Shown here: one piece after another, positions 19,730 through 57,172 of the stretch
Layout of the letters: the number at the start of each line of letters is the position of its first letter
How positions within the stretch are numbered: position 1 is the first letter of the stretch
Source: Eledone cirrhosa
Lineage: Eukaryota
Reading direction: 5' to 3'
NCBI GenBank assembly: GCA_964016885.1
Contig: OZ024740.1
Span: 222,518,001-222,582,000 of the forward strand
DNA: 64,000 nt
Made by a program: the position numbers and the translations under genes
Notes under the pieces: model-generated
Seen by the model: the letters and a program-made list of their open reading frames with translations, nothing else
Told to the model about the DNA's origin: nothing
Database searches by the model: none

Positions 19730-19950
19730 AATGGTTTCTGATTTAGGTACAAAGCCAACAAATTTGGGGGAGAAGGGAAATCGATTAAATAGACCCCAGT
19801 GTATTATTGGTACTTTATTTTATCGACACTGTAAGGATGAAAGGCAAAGCTAACCTTGGCAGGATTTAAACTCAGAACGTAAAGGGACGTAACTATATGC
19901 TACAAATCATATTGTCTGATCCACTATCAATATTACCAATCTACCATTCT
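19730..19950 (-). mobile_element. SINE S1-related (reverse)
   Basis: Reverse complement of S1 (GGTACTTTATTTTATCGAC..GGATGAAAGGCAAAG..ACTCAGA). Similar copies at ~13860-14040, ~22550-22760 and ~22782-22925. Confidence 0.75.
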
Positions 19951-20510
19951 TAATAAATATATAAATAATAATAAAAAATAATAATAAATCAAATTGTATT
20001 ATTTTGCTCTTATGAATTGAAACGCCATGTTGAGGCCTGCAAGTGTCATTATATGCATCATATAGAAATATGGGCACATATCAATGAAATTAATGGATAT
20101 AGCACTAGCGCAAAGTAAAGGTTTACTCCTACTTTACTCCCACCGTATTATTTTATTCGTTTTAGTCATAAAACTGTGACCATAAGGTGGAGAGGGCAAC
20201 ATAGTTATACCTGTATACTTTTATACTGATAAGTATATATTGAAAGTATATATTTTATATGCGCGTATATTATGTATATATACATAAATACTTACACACA
20301 CACACACATATATATAATTAAAAAAACAAACTTTCGCTCTACATCGCTGAATACAATAAATGTAATCTGAGTTTTTCGAATATTAATAATAACAATTTAT
20401 TCGTTTGCAATTATGCAAACAAGCCTCATTTTTAAAACCATGTCAGTTTTTTTTTTTATTTGAATGTGGCAAAGCCGGCCATTTATCGCTCATATACAGG
20501 AAACTGACAA

Positions 20511-20609
20511 GCCAGTCTGCTGATATGCAATTCTGGCTGATCAGTGGATGTGCTAATATGCAGATCTGACTGATCAGCCAGTCTGCTAATATGCAAATCA
20601 GGCCGATCA
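20511..20609 (+). promoter_or_regulatory. Three 33-bp tandem units each carrying an octamer-like motif
   Basis: Units 20511-20543, 20544-20576, 20577-20609 contain ATGCAATT, ATGCAGAT and the perfect ATGCAAAT (20591-20598). The repeat is seen directly; regulatory function is inferred. Confidence 0.55.
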
Positions 20610-20667
20610 GTCACTGTATATTTTAGAAACTAGCATATATTTTCACTAGCTCTGACAGTTGGCAGGT

Positions 20668-20729
20668 GAACAGTGAGCTGTACTGATGAAGGGTGATACT
20701 CAGAAACATTAGTGTCTGCAGTTCTGTTT
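20668..20729 (+). ncRNA. Type I hammerhead ribozyme with bulged stem I
   Basis: GAACAG-TG-AGCTGTA / TGCAGTT-CTGTTT stem I; CTGATGA at 20683; stem II GGGT-GAT-ACTC; GAAA at 20703; stem III ACA-TTAG-TGT; GUC 20714-20716. Confidence 0.9.
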
Positions 20730-20889
20730 ACATGCCAACACAAGAGCAAGAATGAAGGATTCATTCTACTGACATGGCTTTAAAAATGAGGCTTGCTTGC
20801 ATAATTGCAAACAAATCAAATGCTATTATTAATATTTGAAAAACTCAGATTACATTATTATATATATATATATTTATATATGTGTGTGC

Positions 20890-20924
<35 letters not shown>

Positions 20925-20954
20925 CAGAGAGAGAGAGGGGGGAGGGAGAGAGAT

Positions 20955-20997
<43 letters not shown>

Positions 20998-23535
20998 CAA
21001 AATATATGGGGCTATATTTTCTGGGGAAAGGAAAAGTTAAAAAATTGAATATTGTTTTGCAATAGGGAAAGGGGACTCAAGAAATTGAATTTCCAAATTT
21101 TTTCATTGTTTTTGCAAATCATAATGCCCCTAAAGAAAATATATTATTCAGAAAAAAATACACTGAAAGAAAAGTAAAAAATAGAAAAGTTGCAACTGGT
21201 TATTATAATCCATAACAGTGATGGGTGCAGAAGAGGAAAAAGAATTGAAATTTTGAAAATTTTGTTTCCAAAATTCATTTTAGTATGGATCTGACAAAAC
21301 TTGTAAATACTACTCTCATTGGTTGATGGTCGATAATCTTATGTATTCTAGGTTGTAAATAGCTTTATTATAGAAATGTGAAGATGAACTGAAAAACAAA
21401 AAATACAAATAATTCTGCAATTACATAATTGGAAAGTCATTTATGTCATTTAAAAGTTGTTAAATTCTCTTTACATTTATCATTTATTTCTTGGTGTCAA
21501 AACTTATTTGCAACTGGGTTGAAAATTTTGATACCAGGAAAAAAGATATATGTGTGAAATGAAGGGAACAGGGTTTGTGTGGTTCTGTATGGCTAAAATA
21601 AATCTTCCATGATGTAATTGCTTTAATTTAAATATGCTGACTCAGATCATGTTATGTGCCAGACAAGTACAATTCTGAAACAAATACTTTTGTTTTTAAA
21701 CAAATTCAATAATGGAAATAGTTACAATCTCGATTATATTTCGGATAAACTTCCATAGGTTTTTTAAACTTCCCCTACTTAGTTCTTATATTTCTCTTTG
21801 GACTTTTTAAGATTTGAACATCAAAATCTACAAAGCCTTTTCTTTTTAAGTTAAACATCTTTTTCTTTTAAGATTAAGAAAAGATATATTTTTCATTCAA
21901 AAACAGATTAGGGTTAGATATATATGGCTGTTGTATAAGCATTACAAGTGTATGAATATAATTTTTTGTATTTGAAATGTATCAGTGCATTCTCTTTGTG
22001 ATTCTAATTATATTTTCATCCTTAAGAAATTGAGACAGAAACAACAGCATTTTACATTTTCAGAAATGCAAAAATAAAAACTAATGCTTTCAAATGTAAA
22101 TAAAATATTTATACACTTCAAATGCAAACAAAATATATTTCTATAAAAAAGGTACTTCAGTTGTAAAACCACTAATTTTAATCAATTTTTGTTTCAGACT
22201 CTGAAGATTTTTTTAAATGGTATAATGTAAAAGATAATGGATGGTTTAAAAAAAAATCCCCTGACCAAAAATATATTTCATTTATTTAAAGATAGAATTG
22301 TTATGAACAATTTGTCGTCATTTGTTTTAAAATTATGATAGCTAAAGAAATAGTATTAGAAATATTACAGTTCATTCACTGAGTAATTTGTATTATTTTT
22401 TTTAAACTTTTATTATTTTACCTCGAGATTGAGTCTGGTTGCTATTGATTGATCTAGTAGAAATTGCAGTCTAATACCCTTACAATCACACCCTCTTATC
22501 AACACAATATTGCACAATAACAGCAGGAGCACAGAGATAAAAACAATAATGGTTTCTAATTCAGGCACAAGGCCAACATTTTGGGGAGAGGAGAAATTTT
22601 ATTTAAATTGACCTCTGTGTTACTAGTATCTTATATTATTCACCCTGTTAGGATGAAAGATAAAGGTAACTCCAGAAGGATTCAAACTCAGAATGTAAAG
22701 CGACAGAACCGCATGCTGCAAAGCATGTTTTCTGATTCTCTACCTATACTGCCAATCCACTACTCTAATAACAATAAAAATAATTGTTTCTACTTTTGGC
22801 ACAAGGCCAGCTATTACCCAGTACATTACTGGTACTTTATTTTATCAACCATGAAAGGCAAAGTTGACCTCGGCGGGATTTGAACTCAGAAGGGAAAGGG
22901 CCGTAACTCTATGCGTCAAAGCATAATAACAATAAAAATAATGACACAAAAACTAATCCTTGGTAGTACCAAAGGGTAGCAGTTCTAACCAACAAGCAAC
23001 ATGAATAGTATTGCAAGAGAATTCAATACCAACTAACATGACAATTAGTATGAGGAGTTTACATTGGTAATGTTTAATGAAAATGAACATGTGAGAATTT
23101 GAACAGGTCCAAAGGAAGTAGAGGTGAGAGTGAGATGAGCTATTTACGTTTGTCTATAAATGGTGACAGTCATGTTAGAAATGGAGTAAAAAAAAATCCT
23201 TTTTTAAAGAAACATTAAGATTTGAAGTTTTAATATTTAAATAAGCATTTTAAATTCAGCAAAAAGGCTGTTTTAATAATAGCTTCAATGATATATCCAT
23301 TTCGTTTTTACTCCATTATATATGAGACTGGATTATTAGAATATCAGACAACATACCTTGCAGCATTTAGTAACAGCTGTTCATGTTCTGAGTTCAAATC
23401 CTGCCTGGGTCAATTTTGCTCTTCATACTTCCAAGTTTGATAAAAGGATGTACTAACCAAGTAATGGTGTCAATATTACCGATTGTCTCCTGACAATAAA
23501 ATGTTTAGCCTTGTACCTAACATAGGTGGTCTAAA

Positions 23536-32577: not shown

Positions 32578-32591
<14 letters not shown>

Positions 32592-34076
32592 GTGGCTGTG
32601 GTGGTACTGATGATAGGGAAGATGAGTGGGAGGAAAAGAAAGAGTAAAGTATGTAAAGAAAGACGAAAGGGAGGAAGGTAAGAGTGGCCATGACTATGAG
32701 GACAATCATGATGATGATGAAGAGGATGAAAGAGATGATGACGATAATGATGATAAAGGGGATGATGACAGCAATGATGATGATAATGATGATATAAAGG
32801 TGAGGTTGATGATGTCGATGATGATGCTGAAGATTTTCACTACAGAAATAAAATTTAAATTGTTGCTGACAATAATGATGGTGATAATGATGACAAAGGT
32901 GATGAGGACAATGGTAATGATGACAATGGTGATGATGACGATGGTGTTGATGACAACGATGATGATGCCAAGAGTGACGATGATAATGAAGATGATGAAA
33001 GTGATAATTGTTTCTACTATTGGCACAAGGCCAGCAATTACCCAGTACATTACTGGTACTTTATTTTATCGACCCCGTAAGGATGAAAGGCAAAGTTAAC
33101 CTCGGCGGGATTTGAACTCAGAATAGCAAGGGCCGTAACTCTATGCATCAAAGCATGGTGTCCAACCCTCTACCGATACTGCCAATTCACCGATGAAAGT
33201 GATAATGATGGCAACGATGATGATGGGAATGATGATGAGAATGATGATGATGACAATGATGATGATGACAATGGTGATGATGACAATGGTGATGATGACA
33301 ATGGTGATGATAATGAAAAGGATTAAGGTGATAATTATAACAATGATGATATAATGGTGATGACAAAGATAATGATGATGATGATGATGATGATGATGGT
33401 GGTGATGATAACAGTGGTGCAGATGATGAGTGTGATTATGATGACATTGAGTATCATTGTTGTTGCTATTATCATCATTGTCACCATCATGATTATCATT
33501 ACAATTGTTGTTAAGTTACACTTATGATTAAGGTGAGAGCTCTTTCAAATAATAGAGACATAAATATTTTATTCATCATCATTACCAGTATTATGTCTGT
33601 ATTTCCATTCTGGCATGGGCCAGGTGACATTTTTGAAGAACTCTATGAATAGCTACCCTTTGATAACAACTTTCAATTGCTCTCTAAGTAAGATATGAAA
33701 TTTTGTCCATTTCTCTGCCTGGCCTGAGCCATGAGACTAGTTTATGTGGAATACAAATAAACATCACTGCCTATAAAGATTTGAATTATTTAAGATCACC
33801 AAACACCCGTTAAGTCATTCTTCGCTTTTTTCTTACTATATATCTTACTATACTAAGGAAGTTCTTTGATTTTCCACTATATATATATATATATATATAG
33901 GAACGAGTAGGAGCCCGACGGCTGAGCTCAAGCCGTTTCGACGGTGAATTAACCGTCGAAACGGCTTGAGCTCAGCCGTCGGGGTCCTACTCGTTCCTAT
34001 TACCCACTCTACTACCCTAAGTATTGAGTACTTTGGTGCGTTATGGTCCACCTGGTTCCTTACCACATTTCCTTCG

Positions 34077-34149
<73 letters not shown>

Positions 34150-34300
34150 GTCGTTTGGAAGCCTCGACAATGCAGATGCGTAAATCTCCGGGTAACAAGA
34201 TCCGGTGGTGGGTGTATGTTGAGATGCGTGGCGTGTATAATACTGTAACGTGTAGAGAATGAAGGAAAGAGCGTAAAGGATAAAAATAAAAATAACAACA
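32578..34300 (+). repeat. Left arm of ~1.7 kb inverted duplication ((GAT)-rich DNA, S1 SINE, unique DNA, family Y pLTR)
   Basis: Reverse complement of 39425-41106; ORFs 32626..33099(+) and 40587..41060(-) are almost identical. Confidence 0.95.
33898..34079 (+). mobile_element. PLE pLTR family Y: ~100-nt near-perfect hairpin holding the 3' half of a hammerhead, plus tail
   Basis: Arms 33898-33945 and 33952-33999; GAAA-CGGC..GCCG-TC gives stem III and GUC; tail runs to (TA)n. Duplicate at ~39630-39811. Confidence 0.85.
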
Positions 34301-34964: not shown

Positions 34965-35639
34965 GCTAAATAACAAAGGAATTGCGGTAAGGAACCAGAT
35001 GGACTATAACGCACCAGAGAACTCAATACTTAGGGTAGTAGAGTGGGAAATAGGAAAATGTATGACCCCCACGACAGAGCTCAAGCCGTTTCGACGGCTA
35101 TTTCTGGACTAACTACATATAGCAGATGTGTTAAACCCCTTTAATTTTGTATCAGTTTTGTAATTTCTACAAGTTTTTTCTATTCTCAACTTATTAACCT
35201 GTAATTGTAAGATAGCATTGTGATTTTTTTATTCATTTCTCACTATCTAATTTTATATATTTTTTTATTTCTTTCTAGTATCTTTTATTGTCTCCTACTC
35301 TCATTCGATTTACCTATTCTATAACCTCCCTCCTCCACTTCATACACTATCCTTAAAATCTGCTGTATACATATCACTTTCAACGCTTGACCGCTCCACT
35401 CACTCCCCTATTATTCTACAGGCAAGTTCAGCCACCCCTACCACCCACCAAATGCCATGATGGACTTATTTGTGTTTACAACACATATTAACCAATCCTC
35501 TTGACAACTACAATCTTCCCATATAAGGAAGTACCCCCTTGACAAATTCGGCTATTTATTCACCAGGCTAAAAATTCTAATTTAGTCCAGAAATAGCCGT
35601 CGAAACGGCTTGAGCTCTGCCGTCGGAGTCATACTTTTT

Positions 35640-35643
<4 letters not shown>
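34965..35643 (+). mobile_element. Diverged family Y pLTR pair (inverted arm with tail, forward arm with ribozyme)
   Basis: 35051-35112 is the reverse complement of 35582-35643; 34970-35050 is the reverse complement of the family Y tail. Confidence 0.8.
35531..35634 (+). ncRNA. Hammerhead with U3-A8 core variant
   Basis: TTGACAA at 35539-35545; stem II CGGCTATTT/AAATAGCCG; GAAA at 35602; CGGC/GCCG stem III; GUC 35622-35624; imperfect stem I. Confidence 0.65.
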
Positions 35644-35807: not shown

Positions 35808-35873
35808 TATTTCATTATATATATTTCAGGGATATCATATTGAAAATATGTTATGCCTTCTTCAGACAAAATA
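35808..35873 (-). ncRNA. Type I hammerhead ribozyme (pLTR family X)
   Basis: Minus strand TATTTTGT-CTGAAGA-AGG..CCT-GAAA-TATATA-TA-ATGAAATA. Family copy at 57066-57131. Confidence 0.8.
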
Positions 35874-37211: not shown

Positions 37212-39390
37212 CTAGATTTTAAATTTATATTTATATTTAAAAGTTGAGTTCAATCTATGTCTGCAGCAACTGAATAAATTTGTCCGTAAATTAAGGGAAT
37301 TTTTAGATTTTAGTATAAAGAATATCTCCTCCGCGCAGAGGTCACATGTCTCAGAGGATGAATTAAAAGGAATCCCTCTTGAGACTATATTCCAAGCCGT
37401 CGAATATGCAACGTTATCATGCCTAAGTTGCCAGAGTAAGCCTGATAGCGATGTTGAAGATTTTTTGCTTGGATCTGTGAAAGAATTCTTGTGGTTATTA
37501 TAGCGAAGTTTAAATTCTGTCGAGGTGGAACCAACATAGTTAAAAGAATTTAAGTCCGTTTTAACATTACAGTTGTATATTATATTTTTAACTAAGCAAT
37601 TGTTATTTAACGGACATTTAGATCTATCTCTACAGTTACATTTGTTAACTTGGATATTATTTATGCTATTATCGGTATTTTGGCTAGGTTTTAAATTCCT
37701 ATTATTTATTCTATTAATATTTTGTGCTAAATTTTTGGTGGATGAGTAGGTTAATTTTATAGTATGTCTATTGAAAATTGAGTGATACCTATGTGTTCTA
37801 GGGAAGCGATTATCAAGAGCATTAAAAAATAGTTTAGCGATGTGGGTTTTAATGTTTAGTGAGAAAGGGGGGCAAACCATATTATATTCCTAGTTCTATT
37901 TATTTTTTGGCTTTTGGAATTATTGTAATGCTTTCTATTATAGTTGTTAAAGTTGTTGCCGTAATTAAAATAGTTGTTATTTTGGTTAGTTTGTCTATTA
38001 TTATCTATGTACATAATTTTATCACTATATCCTGCTCTAGCTAACGCTTCATTGTAATACTGGGCTTTTTCGTCGAAAATCTTTTTATTAAATGAGATTC
38101 TAGAAATACGTTTTTGAACAGAGTTTACTATAGTATTTTTAACAGATCTGGGGTGGTTAGAGTTAAAGCTGACATAGTTTAAGTTTTCATTCAACTTGTG
38201 AAATGGATAGTGAAGACATGTGTTGAGATTTAATGTTACATCTAGGAAATTGACTATTCTATGGTTATTCTCAATTTCTATTTTTAGATTAAAGTAATTA
38301 AAAAATTGTGTAATTTGTTTTCTTTTTCTATTTAGTTCAGAGTTATTATTTTCAACAAGTAAAAGCATGTCATCTCTATATAAACCTCCGGTAGCACCGG
38401 GTATTTTCCTATGCAGCGAATTGATTAAAAATAGGCCCACAAGGTCAGTTACCTGAGCTGAGTCGGATGATCTCATAGTAATGTCGAAATTGTTATCACT
38501 ATCTGCTCTGGTCCATAGTTGGTCATTAAATTCTATCAATGTTTTCCTAGCCGATAAAATAATGTGCATTTCATTGCTAGTTAGGTCTGTATGTTTGAAT
38601 GCGTAATTTAGTGCCTTATTTAGTAGATTAGGGGTAATAGATGAATAATAGTTAGCAATATCTAGTTGAATAAACTTATTATTATTGTTATATTTAATTT
38701 CTTTAAACCACTCAACAACCTCTCCAGTTCCCTTCCACAAGCTCAAGTTAGGTAAACAATTCAAGTTTTTAATTTGCTGTATCACCCTGTCTAGAATGTT
38801 TTTGCTTAGTTTACCCAGGTCCGATTTTGATGGTGCAATCAATCTTACTGGCAGGTCATTTTCAAAATTTCTTTTGTGATCTTTCATATTGATCTTCGGT
38901 TTCCTGGGCACGAAAGGTTGTGTTCTGTTCTCAATTTCCAACTCATGCATTATACAAGATGCCTCAACATTCATTTTCTCAAGCTCGGCCTTATCTGCTA
39001 CCTTGTACTTTTTCCTCAGTTCTTTCAGTATGAGGCCATTATACAAGTCTTTTTGCACTCCATAGAGGTTGTTGGTCTTGTCAGATTTCACCAAGATCTT
39101 CTCAGTTTTCTCTAAGCTCTCAATATTATCCTTAATGCCTTTCAAATATTCCTGGCCTTTGAAGTTTCTCTTGAATTTGACTCCTTGTATGATAGAAATT
39201 ATATCGTTTTCAAAGTCAAATAAAAGTTTGTTGGGGGTGGATTTCTTTTAGATTTGAAAACTTTGTCTAAGTCCGAGACATTTTCATTTATATTAGATTT
39301 ATCAAAGTGGAATGCCCGCCACCTGATTCTCCTTATAAAAGAGTCAGATTTATCTATTAAATGTTTAATAACGTCTTTGTTTCTAGGTAT
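37212..39390 (-). mobile_element. Naiad-clade Penelope-like retroelement ORF (RT + GIY-YIG), 5'-truncated, two frameshifts
   Basis: FIRRIRWRA, KSDKTNNLY, FIQLDIANYYSSI, FDITMRSSDSAQVTDLVG, GLYRDDML, VNFLDVTLNL, SNHP, WFAP/PFS, CNCRDRSKCPLNNNC, IIY..YVGST..FKLRYNNHKNSF, CDLC, LNLR..CRH. Confidence 0.93.
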
Positions 39391-39424: not shown

Positions 39425-39575
39425 TGTTGTTATTTTTATTTTTATCCTTTACGCTCTTTCCTTCATTCTCTACACGTTACAGTATTATACACGCCACGCA
39501 TCTCAACGTACACCCACCACCGGATCTTGTTACTCGGAGATTTACGCATCTGCATTGTCGAGGCTTCCAAACGAC

Positions 39576-39632
<57 letters not shown>

Positions 39633-41106
39633 CGAAGGAAATGTGGTAAGGAACAAGGTGGACCATAACGCACCAAAGTACTCAATACTTAGGGTAGTAG
39701 AGTGGGTAATAGGAACGAGTAGGACCCCGACGGCTGAGCTCAAGCCGTTTCGACGGCTAATTCACCGTCGAAACGGCTTGAGCTCAGCCGTCGGGCACCT
39801 ACTCGTTCCTATATATATATATAGTGGAAAATCAAAGAACTTCCTTAGTATAGTAAGATATATAGTAAGAAAAAAGCGAAGAATGACTTAACGGGTGTTT
39901 GGTGATCTTAAATAATTCAAATCTTTATAGGCAGTGATGTTTATTTGTATTCCACATAAACTAGTCTCATGGCTCAGGCCAGGCAGAGAAATGGACAAAA
40001 TTTCATATCTTACTTAGAGAGCAATTGAAAGTTGTTATCAAAGGGTAGCTATTCATAGAGTTCTTCAAAAATGTCACCTGGCCCATGCCAGAATGGAAAT
40101 ACAGACATAATACTGGTAATGATGATGAATAAAATATTTATGTCTCTATTATTTGAAAGAGCTCTCACCTTAATCATAAGTGTAACTTAACAACAATTGT
40201 AATGATAATCATGATGGTGACAATGATGATAATAGCAACAACAATGATACTCAATGTCATCATAATCACACTCATCATCTGCACCACTGTTATCATCACC
40301 ACCATCATCATCATCATCATCATTATCTTTGTCTTTGTCATCACCATTATATCATCATTGTTATAATTATCACCTTAATCCTTTTCATTATCATCACCAT
40401 TGTCATCATCACCATTGTCATCATCACCATTGTCATCATCATCATTCTCATCATCATTCCCATCATCATCGTTGCCATCATTATCACTTTCATCGGTGCA
40501 TTGGCAGTATTGGTAGAGGGTTGGACATCCTGCTTTGACGCATAGAGTTACGGCCCTTGCCATTCTGAGTTCAAATCCCGCCGAGATTAACTTTGCCTTT
40601 CATCCTTACGGGGTCGATAAAATAAAGTACCAGTAATGTACTGGGTAATTGCTGGCCTTGTGCCAATAGTAGAAACAATTATCACCTTCATCATCTTCAT
40701 TATCATCGTCACTCTTGGCATCATCATCGTTGTCATCAACACCATCGTCATCATCACCATTGTCATCATTACCATTGTCCTCATCACCTTTGTCATCATC
40801 ATCACCATCATCATTGTCAGCAACAATTTAAATTTTATTTCTGTAGTGAAAATCTTCAGCATCATCATCGACATCATCAACCTCACCTTTATATCATCAT
40901 TATCATCATCATTGCTGTCATCATCCCCTTTATCATCATTATCGTCATCATCTCTTTCATCCTCTTCATCATCATCATGATTGTCCTCATAGTCATGGCC
41001 ACTCTTACCTTCCTCCCTTTCGTCTTTCTTTACATACTTTACTCTTTCTTTTCCTCCCACTCATCTTCCCTATCATCAGTACCACCACAGCCACCATCAT
41101 CATCAT
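39425..41106 (-). repeat. Right arm of ~1.7 kb inverted duplication
   Basis: Reverse complement of 32578-34300. Confidence 0.95.
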
Positions 41107-44649: not shown

Positions 44650-47030
44650 CCCAGTTTTCCACCTTTAATTTACAGACACATACTCAGAGAAGGCCCATTC
44701 ATTCGGGCCATACTTGCTTCTCTCACCCATCTTTCAACAAAATGCTGGGAAGAGAGTACTTCCCTCTCTACCCTGATTTTCCTTTTCAAATGAAATTTGA
44801 AAAAGTTAATCAGGGCATCACCGAAGAGGTAAGTGCTCGTCTTCAGCCCTTTCAAACGTGTCCACCATACTATCTCTTTCGCCATGGCCACCAGACAGAT
44901 AAAAACTGCCTGCCCTCACCTCTTCGTATTCTCTTAGTGTAGTGCCGATCGCCTCGATGTGTTTGGCGTTCGACACCACTACGGTGACATCGTCGGCATA
45001 TGCTGACACGGATCTTCCGCATCTTAGTTCGCGCGGGACCCCCCCTCAACGTCTCCAGTTTGTGCAGTAATGGCTCGAGAGTCAATACGTACAATAGGGA
45101 CGAGAGGGGACATCCTTGGCGGACCAAGCGCATGATGTTGAACGGTTCCGAAAGGTGATCCTTCACTCTCACTACAGAGCAGATGTCGCTGTGCATGGCA
45201 GCGGTCCAGCTTCTGAAGGCGGGCCCAAAGCTAGCCGCCCTCAGGACTGCCGCTAGGTAACGATGGTCGACCCTATCGAAAGCTTTCGACTGATCTAAAT
45301 TGATCAAGGACCCACCCGTGCCAGGTTCCATAGCTACTCTCTCTACGATGTATCGCATGAGGTGGAGGTTGTCGTGGGTGGATCTGTCGAGAATGGCGCA
45401 TGTCTGTGCCTCTCCCACCAGACCACCAACGACAAGCGCCAACCTCATTGCTAGCACCTTGGACAAAATCTTGAACTCTGTGTTTAGCAGAGTTATGGGC
45501 CTAAAATTATCTATGTTATCCCCCTTATTCGGATCCTTTCTCAGCAGCGCCACAGCTTCTCGGCTCACAGAGCTGGGAATTGTCCCGTTCTGTTGCCAGT
45601 TGCAGTAGATGTCCGCCAAGCGGCCTCCGAACAAGTCTGGCATCTGTACGTAATGTTCATAGGGCAGATATTCCAAACCAGGCGAATTACCTCTTGTGCC
45701 TCCCGTACTTCAGCGGCTGTTATCAGCTTTTCGCAACACTCCGCCTCAGTGGCCGAGAGCCGCGGCAGTCCGTCGAGATAGACACTAATGTCCATCCCTC
45801 GATCCTGCCCGCCCCTGCCCCCGAACAGCTGTGCGAAGTGTCGCTGAAAAGCTTCACACATTTAACCGGGATCGAGTACCTAACGCCCGTCGTGGTCCAC
45901 CAAAGACCGGATCGTGGCTTCGTTGCCACTACGCGCCTCCGCCACTCGGGCCCATTGAACGGCTTTCGTCCCCTCGTGTCTGAGAGCACGCACCCTAGCT
46001 CTGACAACGCAGCCTTCGTGCTTTGCATTGAAGAATTGGTGAAGGGCCTATTTCGCCGCAAGTACGTCGGTCGCGATGCCTTTGCTAAGCGCCTCGTCTA
46101 ATTTTCTAACTAATTCTCCCTCTACTCTATTTTTCTTTATTGCTAAAGCCTTACTAAACCTAATGGACTCTATTCTAATTGCTCTTTTCAGAGCAAACCA
46201 CCACTTGTTGTTGACGATGGCCCCCGTCAACGCCCGCTTAACTAGTTCGCTAATCCGGTCTCTGGTGAGGATGCGTTTAGCTTCCAGTAGCCTGGTCCTC
46301 GTCTATGAAGCCTATCTAAGTAAAGCACACAGATCACGAATTTGTGGTCCGTGTAGCTGACTATCTTGAATTGTGGACAGCCTATGCTAGACCTATCTAT
46401 TTCCCTACAAAATACTCTATCTAGATATGATCTGGATGACCCTATGCGATGTGTCCAAGTCCACATTGACACATTCGGGAAATCCAATCGGTACCTGTCA
46501 GACAGTTCAAAACGCCTGAGCAGGTTGGTGAGGCTCTTGCACCTTCCTCCCCTATCCGCTAATCCCACACAGTCCCAGCGTGCATCTAAGATGCCGTTCC
46601 AGTCGCCCACTAACACTAAAGAGCGGGACGTTCCTAGAAAGGTCTCCAGACGCCGGAAGAAATCAGGCCGCCCTGCTCCTGTCGTGGAATAGACGGCCAC
46701 TAGCCTGAAAGCTTGCCCGTCCCCGCTGGTCATGTCTAGCATCACCAACTTACCTTCTGGGTCCAGGAAGATGGCCCGTATGGCGAGATCCAAACCTCTC
46801 CGAAAAAGCACAGCAGCTCCTCCCCCCGATCCCGGACGGCTGGGAGATGCGTACACATCGTAGCCGCCGAAGATCGGTGCGAAGGCCCGTGCTTTGGAGA
46901 TTCTGGTCTCGCTGATGGCCACTACATCTATGTTTAGTGACCTGTGGTCGTTGAGCAGGTGGCCCTCCTTCCATGACGACCCCAAGCCAAGCGCATTTAT
47001 GCTGCCTATTCTGAGTGAGGTGACGTTGAA
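44650..47030 (-). pseudogene. LINE ORF2 (APE endonuclease + RT), frameshifted and internally deleted
   Basis: LRIGSINALGL, ISETR, VGDWN, SYLDRVF, TDHK, GYWKLN; NFRPITLLNTEFKILSK, LDQSKAFDRVDH, RQGCPLS, YADD. Confidence 0.92.
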
Positions 47031-47743
47031 ATGGAGTGGAAAAGATGGGAAAGACCACTTACCTTCTCGTAGAGGAAGGATGGTTTGTCCATCCTTTTCA
47101 CCACTTGTGGCCTCCTCCGGAAGGATGTCCTAATAAATCCTCCTGGAGATTGTTTGTCGGAAGTCTCCGATTTCTTTGGGTAATTTTTGTTTTAGTGTCG
47201 TGTACGTTTTCTGTGTGATGCGAGTGATTTGTATGTGTGGAGGTGGTGTGAACCTTTGGGTTGTTATGTAGTCTTTTTCTGTGATGCTGGTGTTGTGTTG
47301 GATGTAGTGTAATAATTGGTTGTTGTTCAAATTTAATGCTGTGTAGTGTGTATCGTTTTGGTTGTTTTGTTTTGTTTGCGTTTGTTGTGGGTTTCATTCT
47401 GTTACGCTTTTTGGTGACTTTTGTGGTGTTGGTGTTTGTGGTGATGGGTTTGGTGATGCTGGTGTGGATGGTGGCATATCTGTCCTAACTTTTTTGTTTG
47501 ATAGTTTATTTGTTTCCCTCCATATTTTGTTTTTGGAGGGGGAAGGAAGAGAATTTTTCTTTTTTGGTTTCTTTTTTTCATTTTTCCTGATACCGCTTCC
47601 CACTCCTCGTCGTCACAATCTGTCAGCAGTTGCTATAAGCCGGGAAGTGGAAAATCCTCCACAGGCGTTGGTTTTGCTTGTGGCGTGGTGGATGGTGTAG
47701 GCGCTGGTCCTAGTTCTGGCGCGTTGGGTGGTGGTGTTGTTGG

Positions 47744-48682
47744 TTATTCTACTGTTGCTGCGGTTGTTGCTGTTACAGTAGCTTCTGTTGTTGCTGCTAC
47801 AGTTGTTGCTGCCATCTCTGCTGCTGATGGTGTTGATGGTTGAGTCACTGTGGTTGGTAAGAGAGGTGGCCTCAACCTTTTAGCCTGAGGGCAGAAAGCC
47901 CTTAGGTGGGTTCCTTCACCACAAACGACACACCTAGGCCTTCTGCCCTCGACGATTACGGTGAGGTGGCTGCCGTCAGTGAGATCTATTACCTCTGAGA
48001 TCTCCTCAATGCTTTTATGGTCCGCTTGGATCAAGAGCGCCATCCCAGATCCGGACCAGTTCTCCTGCTTTTCTTTCGCTATTTCGATTATCTTGGTGTT
48101 GGCCTCGATGCCGGCGAGGACGGCAGCCATTAGCCAGGGAATTTCGATGGCCGGTGGAACGTGGGTCACCCCGATCTTCACGAGTTTCTGGCCACAATAG
48201 CTTGGGACGAGTGTGAAGTCGTCACTTCTTAATGGGGCCATGGAGTGTTCTCTGGCCTTCTGTGGTGTTTCAAAGAACACGTCCACGGTTCCATATTTCT
48301 GCCCACGTCTGATGTGGGTTTCTTTTGCCCACACATGTCCCAAAGCTTTTTGGATTTGGGACGCGGATGCCCGTTCCACTCGGCGCGATTTTATGTTAAT
48401 TGTCCGATAAGATACGGTGCATAGGCGACGATGCTCCATTTTATTAGGTGCGCGATGGGTGAGGCTGACCCTGTACCAATCTTTCTTTACCATTCTTTTG
48501 GCTTCTTCTAATTCCTCCTGAGTTACCTGGATCGCTTCGCACATTTTTGCTACTCTCGCAAAAGACAGGGTAGTTTTCTTAATATCATTGTTGTTGTTGT
48601 TATCGTTATTTTTGTTATTGTTCATTTTAGTTTCAGTTGTGGTGGTGGTGGCGTCAGTGGTGTTCGGTGTAGAAGAGTTCAT
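47744..48682 (-). CDS. LINE ORF1 (gag-like, CX2CX4HX4C zinc knuckle); Thr/Pro-rich sequence continues past the stop
   Basis: VEGRRPRCVVCGEGTHLRAFCP. Confidence 0.85.
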   Translation of the reverse strand: MNSSTPNTTDATTTTTETKMNNNKNNDNNNNNDIKKTTLSFARVAKMCEAIQVTQEELEEAKRMVKKDWYRVSLTHRAPNKMEHRRLCTVSYRTINIKSRRVERASASQIQKALGHVWAKETHIRRGQKYGTVDVFFETPQKAREHSMAPLRSDDFTLVPSYCGQKLVKIGVTHVPPAIEIPWLMAAVLAGIEANTKIIEIAKEKQENWSGSGMALLIQADHKSIEEISEVIDLTDGSHLTVIVEGRRPRCVVCGEGTHLRAFCPQAKRLRPPLLPTTVTQPSTPSAAEMAATTVAATTEATVTATTAATVE

Positions 48683-49278
48683 TTTGGTTGAATTTATTTC
48701 GATATCACGAGTTAATTTATTTTTTTCTGTTGTTTCTGTGTCGCTGGGGTGGGGTGGCGGCTTTAAAACACGCAGTCATTGGTAATGGCGGGAAATGAAT
48801 GTCTGCCTGAGACAAATTTAAAATATTGCTACTGCTTATATTTTTAGTGTTGGCAAACGTAGTAATATTTACAATGGTGGTGTCGGTGTGAGGTGTTAGT
48901 TTGTGAGGAAGGTGTGACTCTGTGACGGCCATGATTTTTCAAAGAAATTTTTTTTTTTTGTTTGATAATTATAAAAAGATTAAATTTTGGGCTCAAGGCC
49001 CCAATCTTTTTGAGTGTCTTTTCAGAAATCAATGTATGTGCACTTATATACAGTTAACAATAAAAAGTTTCCATAAATGGCAATTTTAAACAACTGAAAA
49101 TAACAAACCTTTGCGGAACTCACAGTGATACGATTTACAACGTAGGTCGACAATAATAATAATAATAATAATTTTTTTTTTCTTTTTTAAATGATAATCA
49201 ATGTGCTGTATTAACTGGCTTACCAATGCACACTGTGAATTTATTTGCCCTCGGAGTCAGGAAGACACTCGGCATATA

Positions 49279-50920
49279 TTGTTCTACATGGATGACCTGA
49301 AACTATTTGCAACAAAATGATGAGCAATTGCAAGGGCTATTATCCACTGTGAAGCAGTTCAGTTATGACATTAAAATGGAGTTTGGACTAGATAAATGCG
49401 TCAAAGCCACGTTCACCAGAGGAAAGCTGCTGAAAAGTTCAGACATTAATCTTGATCGGGGGAACGTGATAAGAGAACTTGATCAAGGGGAAACTTACAA
49501 ATATCTAGGTGTTTGTGAAGGAGACGGAATCAAGCACTCGACAATGAGGGATAGGATAAGGAAGGAATGTTGCCGCATAGTAAGAGCAATCTTAAGAACG
49601 GAATTAAATGCAAGGAATAGGATCGATGCCATAAACACGCTTGCCATACCAGTAGTAACCTACAGTTACAATGTCATCAACTGGTCAAGCACAGAGATCC
49701 GTAGGCTCAATACAAAAATTAGAAAATTCTTAACCATGCGCAGAATGCATCACCCTAAGGCAGATACATATAGAATATATCTCCCTAGGAAAGAACGCGG
49801 ATGTGGCTTAATCCAGTTAGATATTGCGTTGAAAACTGCAACAATTGGATTATCTACATATCTAAAGGTATCACATGATTGGGTGATCAAACTCATTTTG
49901 AAACACAAAAGCATCAAAAGATGCACAAAGATACAGTAATGAACTACAAATATCAGAAGTCCCATTTACTGCTGAAATGAAAAAACACAGAAAAAGCAAA
50001 GCAGGTAAAAGTAACTGCAAAGAAAGAGCTGCTACAGAAACTGGCTAAGAAATGGCAAGAAAAGTATCTGTATGGAAAATACCCAGAAAGAGCTATCAAT
50101 CCTGATGTTGACAAAACTTTAACCCATCAGTGGTTGGCATCCTCTGGACTGAAATTGGAGACTGAAGGACTGATTATATCAGCACAAGATGAGTGTCTGC
50201 CAACAAAAAATTACCAAGCCAACATAATAAAAATTGCAACCCATTATGCTGTGTATCTAAAAAACAACCAAAGACCATTGATAATATAATTTCAATGTGC
50301 AGTCCTATAGTTCCAAGCCAATACCTAAACAGGCACGACAGAGCTGCACAATACATACATTGGATAATGTGTAAGCATTTTGACCTGCCCCATCAAAATA
50401 ATTGGGGGGGGGGGAGCATAAACCACCTACCGTACTTGAAAAAGATCACATCTCAATACTGTGAAACTTTAGCATCCCCAACAGACCGAAAAATAAATGC
50501 AAATAGACCTGATATAATACTGAAGGACTTTAAAAAGAGGGTATGCCTGCTAATTGATATGTCCGTTCCAATAGACAAGAATGTTTCAATAAAAACATTT
50601 GAAAAATTGAGCAAGTATAAGGACCTGGAGTTAGAAATTGGAAAAACGTGGAAATTGAGAACTAAAACAATACCAGTGGTTGTAGGCCCTCTAGGAATGA
50701 TACCTATGGGGTATAATGATTACTTATCGCAAATCCCAGAAGAAATACAAAAGATGGTACTAATGGGAACTAAGGAAGATTCTGTCAATATAAGTACATC
50801 AGAAGTCTAAACTCATAAAGATGCATGTGTGTGTATGTATGTTCTTCCTTGTTGTGTCTTGAGGTCACTGGTTGTGACTTGGTGATAACTCGTATGAACA
50901 TAAAGCAAGATAAATGCAGT

Positions 50921-50977: not shown

Positions 50978-52725
50978 CTTTCTTTATTAACCACAAGGTT
51001 TTACACAAAGTAGACATGAATGACAGTAGAGGACAACAAAGGATGGTGCAAATGGGCATTTCTGCATGTAAAAAAACAAAAAAACAGAGGATGTAACAAA
51101 AAAAAAAACAATGAAAAATTCCCCAATAGGGGGGAGACTTCTGAGGGCCATCGTGGAGAAAGCCCATTTAAAGCCACGGTGACCCTGACCACAGGGGCAA
51201 GTGTCCTCTCCCAGTTTTCCATCTTCAATTTACAGGCATATACACAGAGTAGGCCCATTCACTTGCCCATCTTTCAAAAAAATGCTGGGAAGAGAGCACT
51301 TTCCTCTCTACTCTGATTTTTCTTTTCAAATGAAATTTGAAAAAGTTAATCAGGGCATCACCGAAGAGGTAAGTGCTCATCTTCAGCCCTTTCAGACGCG
51401 TCCACCATACTATCTCTTTCACCATGGCCACCAGACAGATAAAAACTGCCTGCCCTTCCCGGCTAAAGGAAGAGCATGGGGCAATCCTCACGATGGACTC
51501 AGCTGATCCGTTCTACATGCGACAGCAGGTGTTTGACATAAACCCACAAGTCAGCAATGCTTGGACACTGGACGAGTGCAGGGAGGACAGTTTCGTCACC
51601 CAGTATGCATCTCGGACATCCCCGGCTGACGGCACTTCCATGCCTGTAGAGTTTATCCTGAACTGGCAAAGCTCCTCGGTAGCAATGCCAGTCCAGGAAT
51701 TTCTAAAAATTGTTCATGGGCCCCGGCCCGAAAGTTCTTCCGAAGAGATTGGCTAGTTGATTTTCATCGACAACTAGAGTTTCCCAAAGTACGTCGTCGT
51801 TCTCCCCCTCCACTAATACTCTATAGAACGCCAAGGTGGAGTTTCCACCGATCACATTGCCCGACTGGTTGAGCGCCATGAGTGCCTGAAGACATTCCTG
51901 TCTCCAAGCGCTCCCTCTCGGTCTTCGTTTGACCCAGGACTGCAGCTCCATCAAGGAGACGAGCTGGGGAAAGACGCATCTAGCAAATGGCGACCACACC
52001 GGATCACCGTCGAGGAAGAGGTGGAGATGTCGTAGCCTGAACACGTGTCTGCGCATCATCAGCCATGGCATGCCCAGCCCTCCACGTAGCGGGTGTTGAT
52101 AGCAGATGGACCGCCTGACCATCGGAGCGAGTCCCTTCCACAAAAAGCGAAAGAGCAAATGCTCCAGCGCAGTCAGGCGGGGCTTAGGACAAGGTACGAC
52201 GGTCAGGCGGTAGTAGATGACGGACACAATGTATACATTCGCCACCTCCGCTCGACCTTTCAGGGATAGCTTCCTCTCCGCCCATTTCTGGGTGAGAGAA
52301 GCCACCCTCTCTGTCACTTCATCCCAGTTTTTGTCTGTCTGGAGGTCCGGACCGAACCAGACCCCTAGCAATTTAACCGGTCCATCCATCCAGTGCCTGA
52401 CGATGCTGTTGGACGGCATGGAACCGCCTCTCCAGGTGCCAAGCTGCAGGCCCACTGACTTTTCCTGGTTGCTCATTGCTCCTGTCACCGCTTTGTATTC
52501 TCTTAGTGTAGTGCCGATCGCCTCAATGTGTTTGGCTTTCGACACCACTACGGTGACATCGTCCGCATATGCTGACACGGACCTTCCGCATCCTAGTCCG
52601 GGCGGGAACCCCCCCCCCCCCCCCAACGTCTCCAGTTTGTGCAGTAATGGTTCGAGAGTCAATACGTACAAGAGGGACTAGAGGGGACATCCTTGGCGGA
52701 CCGAGTGCATGATGTTGAACGGTTC

Positions 52726-56745: not shown

Positions 56746-57172
56746 AAAGTTATATTTAAATTGTTGGGTTACAACTAGTAAATATTTCTATATATATGTA
56801 TCTATCTCTATTTCCTCTCTCTCTCTATATATATATATATATCTCTGTTTCTTTACATGAAGTTCTTCTCTTTATCTATCTTTCCATCTCTCTATTTTGT
56901 TCCATGCATTTCTTCTTTTTCTTCGTTTTCTGTCTTTCTTTCCTTTTTTTCTCTCTTTCTTTCTCTCTGTGTACAATTTTTTCACTGCCAAATCAACCTT
57001 TTCAAATACAAGTCGATGTTGTTACGGTATGTCGAATCTATTTATCTATAAAACTGTTTATATTGTATTTTGTCTGAGGAAGGCATAGCATATTGTTAGT
57101 ATGATATCCCTGAAATATATATAATGAAATAAATATGGTTTTATAAATATAGTTTCCATTTATTTAATATTG
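56746..57172 (+). mobile_element. pLTR family X: inverted tail piece plus forward tail-less pLTR
   Basis: 56746-56787 matches 35681-35722 in the same orientation; ~56900-57172 is the reverse complement of ~35765-36020. Confidence 0.8.
57066..57131 (+). ncRNA. Type I hammerhead ribozyme (family X)
   Basis: TATTTTGT-CTGAGGA-AGG..CCT-GAAA-TATATA-TA-ATGAAATA. Confidence 0.8.

What the first reader, a model, noticed from the sequence alone, without database searches (positions are those of the whole stretch)
20317..20858. Hammerhead preceded by triple octamer repeats: snRNA-promoter-driven retrozyme-like unit?
Seen: three 33-bp units with ATGCAAAT-like motifs (20511-20609) end about 60 nt before the best-formed ribozyme in the window (bulged stem I, GUC). 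The inverted arms also carry a TTTGCAATTATGCAAA palindrome, and no ORF is present. Established: ATGCAAAT is the POU/Oct distal element of snRNA promoters, and newt satellite 2 hammerhead transcripts use octamer and PSE elements. Inference: a parallel mollusc system with an internal snRNA-like promoter. TCAC-initiated segments at ~20611 and ~20643 are only weak PSE candidates.
Basis: partly seen in the sequence, partly recalled or inferred. Interest (0 to 1): 0.75.

Follow-up and report, generated by a model that had tools for sequence, protein, structure and literature searches.

The report
Hammerhead retrozyme copy with octamer repeats
This is a single copy of a very abundant, protein-free repeat that carries a predicted self-cutting RNA, was likely pasted in by Penelope-type jumping-gene enzymes, and may carry its own on-switch like a newt repeat does, though that last point is untested.

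Summary
There are three 33-bp units, a type I hammerhead 60 nt downstream, inverted arms and no ORF. Only one octamer is perfect here; the family majority has two. The hammerhead core is intact but helix II starts with A·A, which is family-wide.

Reads show a family of roughly 10^4 copies with a head-to-tail unit of about 438 bp. The inverted arms are not fixed termini. They are a variable 5' inversion with a 39-bp tail in a (TA)n target, the published footprint of Penelope-like elements (PLEs). Best reading: a solo non-LTR retrozyme copied by PLE enzymes (about 0.85).

The promoter claim is plausible but untested: no host snRNA gene, no RNA run. Octamers are kept across copies, but no more than neighbouring bases, and the repeats also fold into a strong hairpin. 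I put promoter function at about 0.5 and snRNA-type at about 0.3. Most copies include the promoter part, which favours read-through (Pol II) templates.

The scan already noted this layout on other DNA of this genome; no note matched this family's sequence. New member of a known kind.

The parts
20293..20316 (.). Left half of the target microsatellite, (CA)n(TA)n
   Evidence: sequence; family depth is absent left of here, but 20270-20332 was skipped as repeat
20317..20355 (-). 39-bp tail of the inverted copy: 23 nt that continue the unit past the short end, then about 16 nt (a T7 run) that repeat the unit's start
   Evidence: depth 193,100 at 20345 in X1; 15 of 17 letters match 20445-20461
20356..20447 (-). 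Inverted, 5'-truncated copy of the unit's 3' end (left arm); 3-nt overlap AGT with the direct copy
   Evidence: other loci have other arm lengths
20404..20419 (-). Imperfect palindrome; in element sense a small predicted hairpin of the 3' segment, once per unit
   Evidence: the 131-nt block as a whole folds no better than shuffles, z -1.07
20445..20859 (+). Direct copy: about 415 of about 438 bp of one unit, with the hammerhead inside it
20447..20457 (+). T run at the unit junction (T11 here, T7 in the inverted copy); would stop Pol III (recalled rule)
20503..20613 (+). Three 33-bp units plus a partial fourth; octamer-like sites at 20525-20532, 20558-20565, 20591-20598; whole array is a near-palindrome
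   Evidence: hairpin z -6.4
20611..20630 (+). TCAC-initiated block, weak PSE candidate; polymorphic at 20618 and 20625
   Evidence: sequence; not compared with any host PSE
20636..20647 (+). TATA-like TATATTTT, 25 nt before GGCAG, followed by a second TCACT
   Evidence: sequence; no variant at 7% or more; spacing
20658..20739 (+). Type I hammerhead: helix I with internal loop, core 20683-20689 and 20703-20706, A·A then 4-bp helix II, 3-bp self-complementary helix III, predicted cut after C20716
20768..20859 (+). 3' segment of the unit (right arm), ending at the short end without the tail
   Evidence: 67 contigs and 569 reads run into (AT)n at the matching point
20860..20924 (.). Right half of the target microsatellite, (TA)n(TG)n
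   Evidence: sequence; 20852-21007 was skipped as repeat

Best explanation
This is one insertion of a very abundant non-coding repeat with a head-to-tail unit of about 438 bp holding a type I hammerhead motif (a solo non-LTR retrozyme), likely pasted into a (TA)n tract by a Penelope-like element's enzymes, and its octamer repeats likely act as part of an internal promoter that would drive read-through transcription into the next unit. Steps. Shown: high copy, conserved hammerhead, tandem-type junction, variable inversion, two 3' end points 39 bp apart, (TA)n target. Inferred: in multi-unit loci a POU-bound octamer block with a PSE-like or ordinary core promoter starts Pol II near the start of helix I (about 20660-20670). 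The transcript runs through the T run and the next unit's promoter part. Hammerheads, probably as dimers through the self-complementary helix III, cut it into unit-length RNAs that may circularise. A PLE reverse transcriptase and GIY-YIG endonuclease cut (TA)n DNA and copy the RNA from two start points on the two sides of the break. That gives a long direct copy crossing the cut site and a short inverted copy with the tail. This solo copy has one hammerhead, so it could be transcribed and cut once but would not release a full unit. My odds: retrozyme-type unit copied by PLE enzymes 0.85; octamer block works as promoter or enhancer 0.5; specifically SNAPc/snRNA type 0.3.
For: Family: summed contig depth 1.3-3.1 x 10^5 over 20524-20732 against 9-11.5 in unique flanks; ratio 1-3 x 10^4 (rough, the tool says summed depth is no copy number); also in organism B (43 contigs). 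PLE footprint as described in PMC8557442 (passages: 5' truncation, adjacent inverted 5'-truncated copy, 30-40 bp tail, (TA)n bias): depth climbs from 3.4 x 10^4 at 20458-20468 to 3.1 x 10^5 at 20711-20721; depth of the two arms added in register is 2.4-2.9 x 10^5 at 3 positions checked, like the interior; among the 15 of 180 joints shown, 3 join the left arm to other interior points and 3 are opposite-strand joints inside the unit, 5 more such position pairs are in table 5c without a printed kind; joint 20602/20710 recurs in a second sample. Tandem unit: tail end matches unit start 15 of 17; 27 reads put tail-like letters directly before 20447, 34 contigs have a blurred tail-like loose end there (judged by eye), and go-back joints 20773 to 20464 (X12; matching row in X13) and 20750 to 20481 (X1) exist. 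Hammerhead: 0 of 13 core positions vary at 7% or more; 6 of 7 changes at paired sites keep the pair (P 0.023 for 6 of 6 transitions); helix III is self-complementary (-8.8 kcal/mol), as in PMC4209133; 9 of 21 distinct metagenome matches to the A·A motif have helices I and III and GUH against 4.6% with shuffled flanks. Promoter: majority octamers perfect in units 1 and 3; 17 of 20 columns around the octamer are identical in the three units against 5 of 13 elsewhere; precedents are newt satellite 2 (cited in PMC2220036) and the Penelope pLTR promoter (PMC2377424). No depth step at 20660, so most templates held the promoter part.
Against: No transcription, cleavage or circle was shown. No contig shown spans two full units, and this locus has one hammerhead. 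Joints rest on 1-3 read start places each where shown, from ddRAD libraries at 80% likeness, where the tool warns of repeat artefacts. Octamer and core conservation alone are not beyond chance (P 0.28 and 0.36). The octamers sit 60-133 bp before helix I, closer than the -250 to -170 given for the distal element (PMC9652321). The repeat array is a strong RNA hairpin, so column conservation could reflect structure or recent duplication. The PSE candidate is polymorphic at two sites. No Rfam hammerhead hit. No sequence link to an autonomous PLE was found in the window. In Li et al. 8 of 9 predicted retrozymes did not cut in vitro.
Confidence: 0.6

Rival explanations
1. Same element, but the block is a U6-type Pol III promoter (octamer, PSE, TATA) that makes a short RNA of about 235 nt from near 20661 to the T run; full units would come only from rare read-through.
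For: TATA-like site invariant at 7% and 25 nt before GGCAG; T7-T11 run about 180 nt past the cut site; the tail end of the inverted copy lies within 4 nt of that run; TATA selects Pol III in vertebrates (PMC9652321); unchecked scan notes report U6-like boxes in other families.
Against: Depth shows no step at 20660 and stays at about 60% of the plateau up to 20535, so most copied templates included DNA upstream of the proposed start. No host U6 was compared.
Confidence: 0.18
2. Same element, but the 33-bp units are a structural minisatellite (RNA hairpin or protein-binding stem) with a chance octamer; the family is transcribed by read-through from host genes.
For: Array folds at z -6.4; the unit 2 mismatch makes the central hairpin pair better; about 2-3% of 544-bp tiles hold an octamer by chance; conservation test has no power; copies with one or two units skipped occur (33- and 66-nt skips).
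Against: Order and spacing octamer - TCAC block - TATA-like - helix I fit a promoter; newt and Penelope precedents; other families of this genome are said to share the layout (unchecked notes).
Confidence: 0.3
3. The family is the 3' pseudo-LTR fragment of a longer autonomous PLE, not a self-contained tandem unit.
For: Hammerhead, tail, inversion and 5' truncation are all pLTR features; retrozymes derive from pLTRs.
Against: The sequence before the unit start looks like the unit's own tail; no ORF letters seen in the loose ends shown (12 of 534 rows).
Confidence: 0.1
4. A MITE (non-autonomous DNA transposon) with about 97-bp terminal inverted repeats that captured a hammerhead.
For: Two 91% identical inverted arms frame the copy.
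Against: Arm length and junction differ among loci; one side has a 39-bp extension; depth falls steadily toward the 5' end; arm depth sums to about one copy per element.
Confidence: 0.03

Closest known systems
Metazoan non-LTR retrozymes (Cervera and de la Pena 2020, PMC7229834, passages and Discussion read; Li, Clavereau and Pollet 2026, 10.64898/2026.07.22.740005, parts 1-3 of 5 read)
   Same: Non-coding unit of a few hundred bp, type I hammerhead with short self-complementary helix III, high copy, solo and head-to-tail forms; mismatch at the base of helix II has a precedent (U·U in axolotl Amex2).
   Different: Those texts propose PLE mobilisation but do not describe inversion, tail and (TA)n footprints on retrozymes in the parts read; in PMC7229834 both occurrences of 'promoter' are T7. 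Here the mismatch is A·A, and expression, cleavage and circles are untested.
Penelope-like element insertions (Craig et al. 2021, PMC8557442, passages; Arkhipova et al. 2013, PMC3846280, passages; Frangieh et al. 2024, PMC11167929, parts 1-2 of 4)
   Same: 5' truncation, adjacent inverted truncated copy, 30-40 bp tail from two reverse-transcription start sites, AT-rich or (TA)n target, hammerhead near the 3' end.
   Different: No RT or GIY-YIG ORF; partner family not identified.
Newt satellite 2 (Coats, Zhang and Epstein 1994; paper not held, seen only as cited in PMC2220036 and, for Pol II, PMC6765202)
   Same: Hammerhead repeat of a few hundred bp with a proposed internal snRNA-type promoter just upstream of the ribozyme.
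   Different: There it was shown by experiment (octamer and PSE dependence recalled, not read); here only motifs are seen, with octamers triplicated in 33-bp units and a TATA-like site.
Schistosome SM-alpha hammerhead repeats (as reviewed in PMC6765202, passages)
   Same: Promoter followed by hammerhead in a tandem repeat; after cutting the promoter lies at the 3' end, so only tandem copies propagate.
   Different: That promoter is Pol III and SINE-like; no such box was sought or seen here.

Membership tests
Non-LTR retrozyme | Type I hammerhead in the unit | tested here: met
Non-LTR retrozyme | No protein coding; unit of a few hundred bp | tested here: met
   unit about 438 bp
Non-LTR retrozyme | Tandem arrays with two or more hammerhead units somewhere in the family | tested here: inconclusive
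   This locus is a solo. Head-to-tail junctions are seen but no contig shown spans two units.
Non-LTR retrozyme | Self-cleavage and expression as linear or circular monomers | not testable with these tools
   no RNA holder listed; needs bench assay
PLE-mobilised insertion | Inverted 5'-truncated copy abutting the 5' end, variable among loci | tested here: met
   few read starts per joint
PLE-mobilised insertion | 30-40 bp tail at one end only | tested here: met
   39 bp, 20317-20355; two end points in reads
PLE-mobilised insertion | 5' truncation gradient and (TA)n target | tested here: met
   contig depth is an indirect measure
PLE-mobilised insertion | Sequence homology to the pLTR of an autonomous PLE | tested here: inconclusive
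   none within the 64-kb window; genome not held
Autonomous PLE | RT plus GIY-YIG ORF | tested here: not met
Canonical hammerhead | Core C3-A9, G12-A14, A15.1-U16.1, NUH | tested here: met
Canonical hammerhead | G10.1-C11.1 pair; Rfam model match | tested here: not met
   A·A in this copy and the family; no Rfam hit. A variant; the A·A form recurs in unrelated natural motifs.
snRNA-type promoter | Octamer distal element | tested here: met
   two perfect sites in the family majority
snRNA-type promoter | Distal element at about -250 to -170 from the start | tested here: inconclusive
   60-133 bp before helix I; true start unknown
snRNA-type promoter | PSE matching the host's U1/U2/U6 PSE at -40 to -70 | not testable with these tools
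   TCAC block lies 47-55 nt before 20658-20666, but no host snRNA gene was available; no usable mollusc PSE in searches
snRNA-type promoter | SNAPc-dependent transcription from a discrete start | not testable with these tools
   needs RNA or reporter data
MITE | Fixed terminal inverted repeats shared by copies | tested here: not met

The most novel reading that the evidence does not exclude
Animal retrozymes carry a hijacked snRNA-gene promoter (POU octamers plus SNAPc site) inside each unit, here amplified to three octamer repeats, and this module is shared in design from newts to molluscs. It explains their constitutive expression in all tissues, while PLE enzymes copy the resulting RNA circles from two start points to leave the inverted, tailed insertions.
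Probability: 0.28. Interest if true: 0.7.

Novelty: new member of a known kind. Interest (0 to 1): 0.45.

Why it matters
Two open points about animal retrozymes become testable on one family. First, what copies them: the papers read propose PLEs from co-occurrence and pLTR homology, and this family shows the PLE insertion footprint itself. Second, what transcribes them: they are reported as highly expressed in most tissues, and the parts read name no promoter, apart from the newt and schistosome cases. If the octamer block drives SNAPc-dependent transcription, about 10^4 copies would also be POU/SNAPc sites scattered through the genome. If it does not, this is an ordinary retrozyme solo.

Tried and rejected
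Whole genome: not held, so no copy alignment, no host snRNA promoters and no partner PLE search. Rfam: no match at gathering score in the window; only chance miRNA/snoRNA matches at E up to 10. No other copy in the window. Family core pattern: 0 hits in viral, metagenome and prokaryote collections; relaxed pattern: 0 viral, 28 metagenome loci, none a family member (only a 30-nt core match in L023) and 0 of 29 matches with a perfect octamer in 200 nt upstream, which says nothing on the promoter because these are unrelated. No RNA holder listed; not evidence either way. Read starts and ends piled at 20731/20734, 20409/20412, 20463 and 20806 fall on CATG and AATT sites and were rejected as ddRAD cut sites, not element ends (inference from the sequence). 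Extended motif TAATATGCAAAT with one mismatch: 2 window matches, both in the element, against 2.3 by chance window-wide: not informative. Paper search for the hammerhead's letters: 0 papers. Searches for a mollusc snRNA promoter and for retrozyme plus snRNA promoter listed no paper describing this in a mollusc; PMC13652810 and PMC13282606 passages were not relevant. Supplements were not read, and those of the bioRxiv preprint are closed; they could list this family. Sigma-70 scan is not applicable. Pfam, PDB and pairwise comparison did not recognise the neighbouring PLE-like ORFs. MITE reading rejected.

Full report
1. Observation. The three 33-bp units are real. In this copy only unit 3 has a perfect ATGCAAAT (20591-20598); units 1 and 2 have one mismatch each. 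The third ends 60 nt before helix I. The ribozyme is a type I hammerhead: helix I 20658-20682 with 20717-20739 (outer part, internal loop, 5-bp inner part), core CUGAUGA at 20683, a 4-bp helix II flanked by A20690 and A20702, GAAA at 20703, a 3-bp helix III and GUC ending at 20716. All 27 modelled pairs are standard; this fold scores -25.2 kcal/mol against -34.1 for an alternative minimum. Rfam gives no hammerhead match. The arms are 91% identical over 97 nt. No ORF of 100 aa overlaps the element, and there is no second copy in the window.

2. It is a high-copy family. No genome is held, so I laid public runs on the stretch. In X1 (contigs, organism A) 9,414 records were laid, with summed depth 10^4 to 4.7 x 10^5 inside 20328-20860 and 9-11.5 on unique flank contigs; X12 (ddRAD reads) gave 47,972 reads; organism B gave 43 contigs and organism C 2. 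The ratio suggests 1-3 x 10^4 copies; this is rough, because the tool warns that summed depth is no copy number. Earlier scan notes call the animal an octopus; I did not test that.

3. The inverted arms are an insertion footprint. Both ends lie in the (TA)n core of a (CA)n(TA)n(TG)n tract. Copies end at two points: 67 contigs and 569 reads pass into (AT)n at the short end (20356 in register, 27 more contigs at 20351), while depth 193,100 continues into the extension at 20345. The extension here is 39 bp. Depth rises steadily 5' to 3'. Arm depths added in register equal interior depth at the 3 positions checked. Of 15 joints shown (of 180), three link the left arm to other interior points (20366 to 20537, 20366 to 20582, 20392 to 20701) and three are opposite-strand joints inside the unit (20533/20760, 20561/20732, 20602/20710). 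Five more left-arm/interior pairs stand in table 5c (12 of 83 rows shown) without a kind. One search repeats 20602/20710 in a second sample and adds 20523/20707. Each has few read starts, so each is probably one locus, and artefacts are possible. Together they show that arm length and junction vary. Craig et al. (PMC8557442, passages) list exactly this set for PLEs: 5' truncation, an adjacent inverted truncated copy, a 30-40 bp tail, (TA)n bias. Frangieh et al. (PMC11167929, parts 1-2 of 4) trace the tail to two reverse-transcription start sites. A MITE is rejected.

4. The unit is head-to-tail. Read in element sense, the left block is arm, 23 nt, then 17 nt that match the direct copy's first letters 15 of 17. 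This closes a unit of about 438 bp, of which the direct copy holds 415 with the cut site inside. Supporting rows: 27 reads with tail-like letters directly before 20447; 34 contigs with a blurred loose end there (agreement 0.44, tail-like by eye); go-back joints 20750 to 20481 and 20752 to 20464, the latter matching 20773 to 20464. No contig shown spans two units, so arrays are inferred. I looked for this junction after seeing scan notes on 420-468 bp arrays. A copy that crosses the cut site needs an uncut, multimeric or re-ligated template.

5. Conservation. One search lists all 30 differences at 7% or more over 20425-20752. I dropped two rows with one read start (20451, 20459); of 28, 7 are private to this copy and 21 polymorphic. 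Unit 1 octamer: T20531 is A in 115,166 of 115,257 depth (X1) and 11,922 of 12,405 reads (X13), so it is perfect in the majority. Unit 2: the perfect form is 1.6% and 8.1%. Unit 3: no row. But 1 polymorphic site in 24 octamer positions against 1.8 expected, and 0 in 13 core positions against 0.97, are not significant. Six of 7 changes at paired ribozyme sites keep the pair (P 0.023 for the 6 transitions; partners not phased; one is this copy's private change). A20690 and A20702 have no row, so A·A is the family state. It also recurs elsewhere: 9 of 21 distinct metagenome matches to that motif have helices I and III and GUH, against 268 of 5,800 with shuffled flanks. Mismatches there have precedent as U·U. 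Helix III is self-complementary, the dimer design described in PMC4209133 (parts 1-2 of 4).

6. The promoter question. For: order octamers, TCAC block (20611), TATA-like site (20636), GGCAG (20661) and helix I; the TCAC block is 47-55 nt before 20658-20666, within the -40 to -70 given for the PSE (PMC9652321, passages). The 20 columns around the octamer are 17 identical in the three units, the other 13 only 5. Newt satellite 2 has an snRNA-type Pol II promoter (cited in PMC2220036; PMC6765202; the original is not held). Penelope's pLTR drives the downstream copy (PMC2377424, abstract and Discussion). Against: the octamers are closer than the usual distal element; the TCAC block is polymorphic at two sites; the array is a strong hairpin (z -6.4); one octamer per 544 bp arises in 3 of 117 tiles. 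A TATA 20 bp before TCACT was also read as an ordinary core promoter in a rotifer pLTR (PMC3846280, passages). No host snRNA gene could be compared, and no RNA holder was listed. At least eight scan notes report similar layouts and U6-like boxes in other families of this genome. They are unchecked, I could not test their host comparison, and none matched this sequence. They raised my odds from 0.15 and gave me the TATA-GGCAG-oligo(T) layout and the two-start-point wording.

7. Mechanism. I commit to Pol II read-through. Depth has no step at the proposed start and is still about 60% of the plateau at 20535, so most templates contained the promoter part, which a Pol III transcript stopping at the T run would lack. 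In arrays the block in one unit would start a transcript near helix I that runs into the next unit. Hammerheads would cut it to unit length, perhaps followed by circularisation as shown for mussel, coral and axolotl retrozymes (PMC7229834). PLE enzymes would then copy it into (TA)n. Family structure and footprint are shown; transcription, cutting, circles and the partner are inferred. A Hydra-like broken PLE lies 16 kb away and shows that a (TA)n-targeting clade is in this genome, but it shares no sequence with the unit.

8. Comparison and verdict. It works like, and most likely is, a solo copy of a non-LTR retrozyme family; tandem arrays and expression remain to be shown. It is not an autonomous PLE, not a MITE and not a canonical hammerhead at 10.1-11.1. 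Li et al. 2026 (parts 1-3 of 5) already argue that animal retrozymes are non-autonomous PLE derivatives, and count solos. Searches listed no paper on this family or on an snRNA-type promoter in a mollusc retrozyme; most subscription papers and all supplements were out of view. New member of a known kind, with a direct PLE footprint and an untested promoter lead. Interest 0.45.

Noticed in passing
window 37212-39247 (-): Broken PLE-like ORF in two frames, RT part upstream of a GIY-YIG-like part, with DKT and CxCX5C motifs read by eye. These are the Hydra-clade marks in PMC8557442, a clade that targets (TA)n. No Pfam or PDB hit. No sequence shared with the retrozyme unit.
   Followed up: partly
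window 32580-34300 and 39425-41106: About 1.7-kb inverted duplication, 96-99% identical, framing that element.
   Followed up: no
window 35824-35865 (-) and 57074-57115 (+): Two copies (90% over 107 nt) of a second hammerhead-like core with extra A, long helix II and an AT-palindromic helix III, like the minimal PLE hammerheads.
   Followed up: partly
window 33897-34077, 34967-35104, 35586-35640, 39626-39812: Short (TA)n-flanked repeat family, 87-94% identical; may be the scrambled-hammerhead family of earlier scan notes, not checked.
   Followed up: no
window 20464-20773: A go-back joint gives a 310-bp shortened unit in X12 (126 reads, 1 start) and a matching row in X13; earlier notes describe a 310-nt family, but no sequence match was returned, so the equal size may be coincidence.
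   Followed up: partly
window 20785: 3,791 ddRAD reads of X12 leave the element here into mixed AT-rich sequence (agreement 0.38): perhaps a third 3' end point or a subfamily. No matching drop in X1 depth. Unexplained.
   Followed up: no
window 20563-20730: 8 non-CpG A/G polymorphic sites against 4 C/T on the sense strand, several in predicted hairpins, including the unit 2 octamer mismatch. Could be fixed A-to-I edits; too few to test.
   Followed up: partly
L004, L009, L013, L016, L018, L019, L021, L026, L028 (match at 761-828): Unrelated metagenome hammerhead candidates with A·A at the base of helix II. Passages of PMC3088659 shown mention U·U there, not A·A (12 of 32 places seen).
   Followed up: partly
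window 19766-19885: SINE-like segment that I recall as a cephalopod repeat; recalled, not tested.
   Followed up: no
window 44870-48775 (-), 49301-50810 (+), 51703-52677 (-): Fragments of non-LTR retrotransposon ORFs (endonuclease and RT, read by eye).
   Followed up: no
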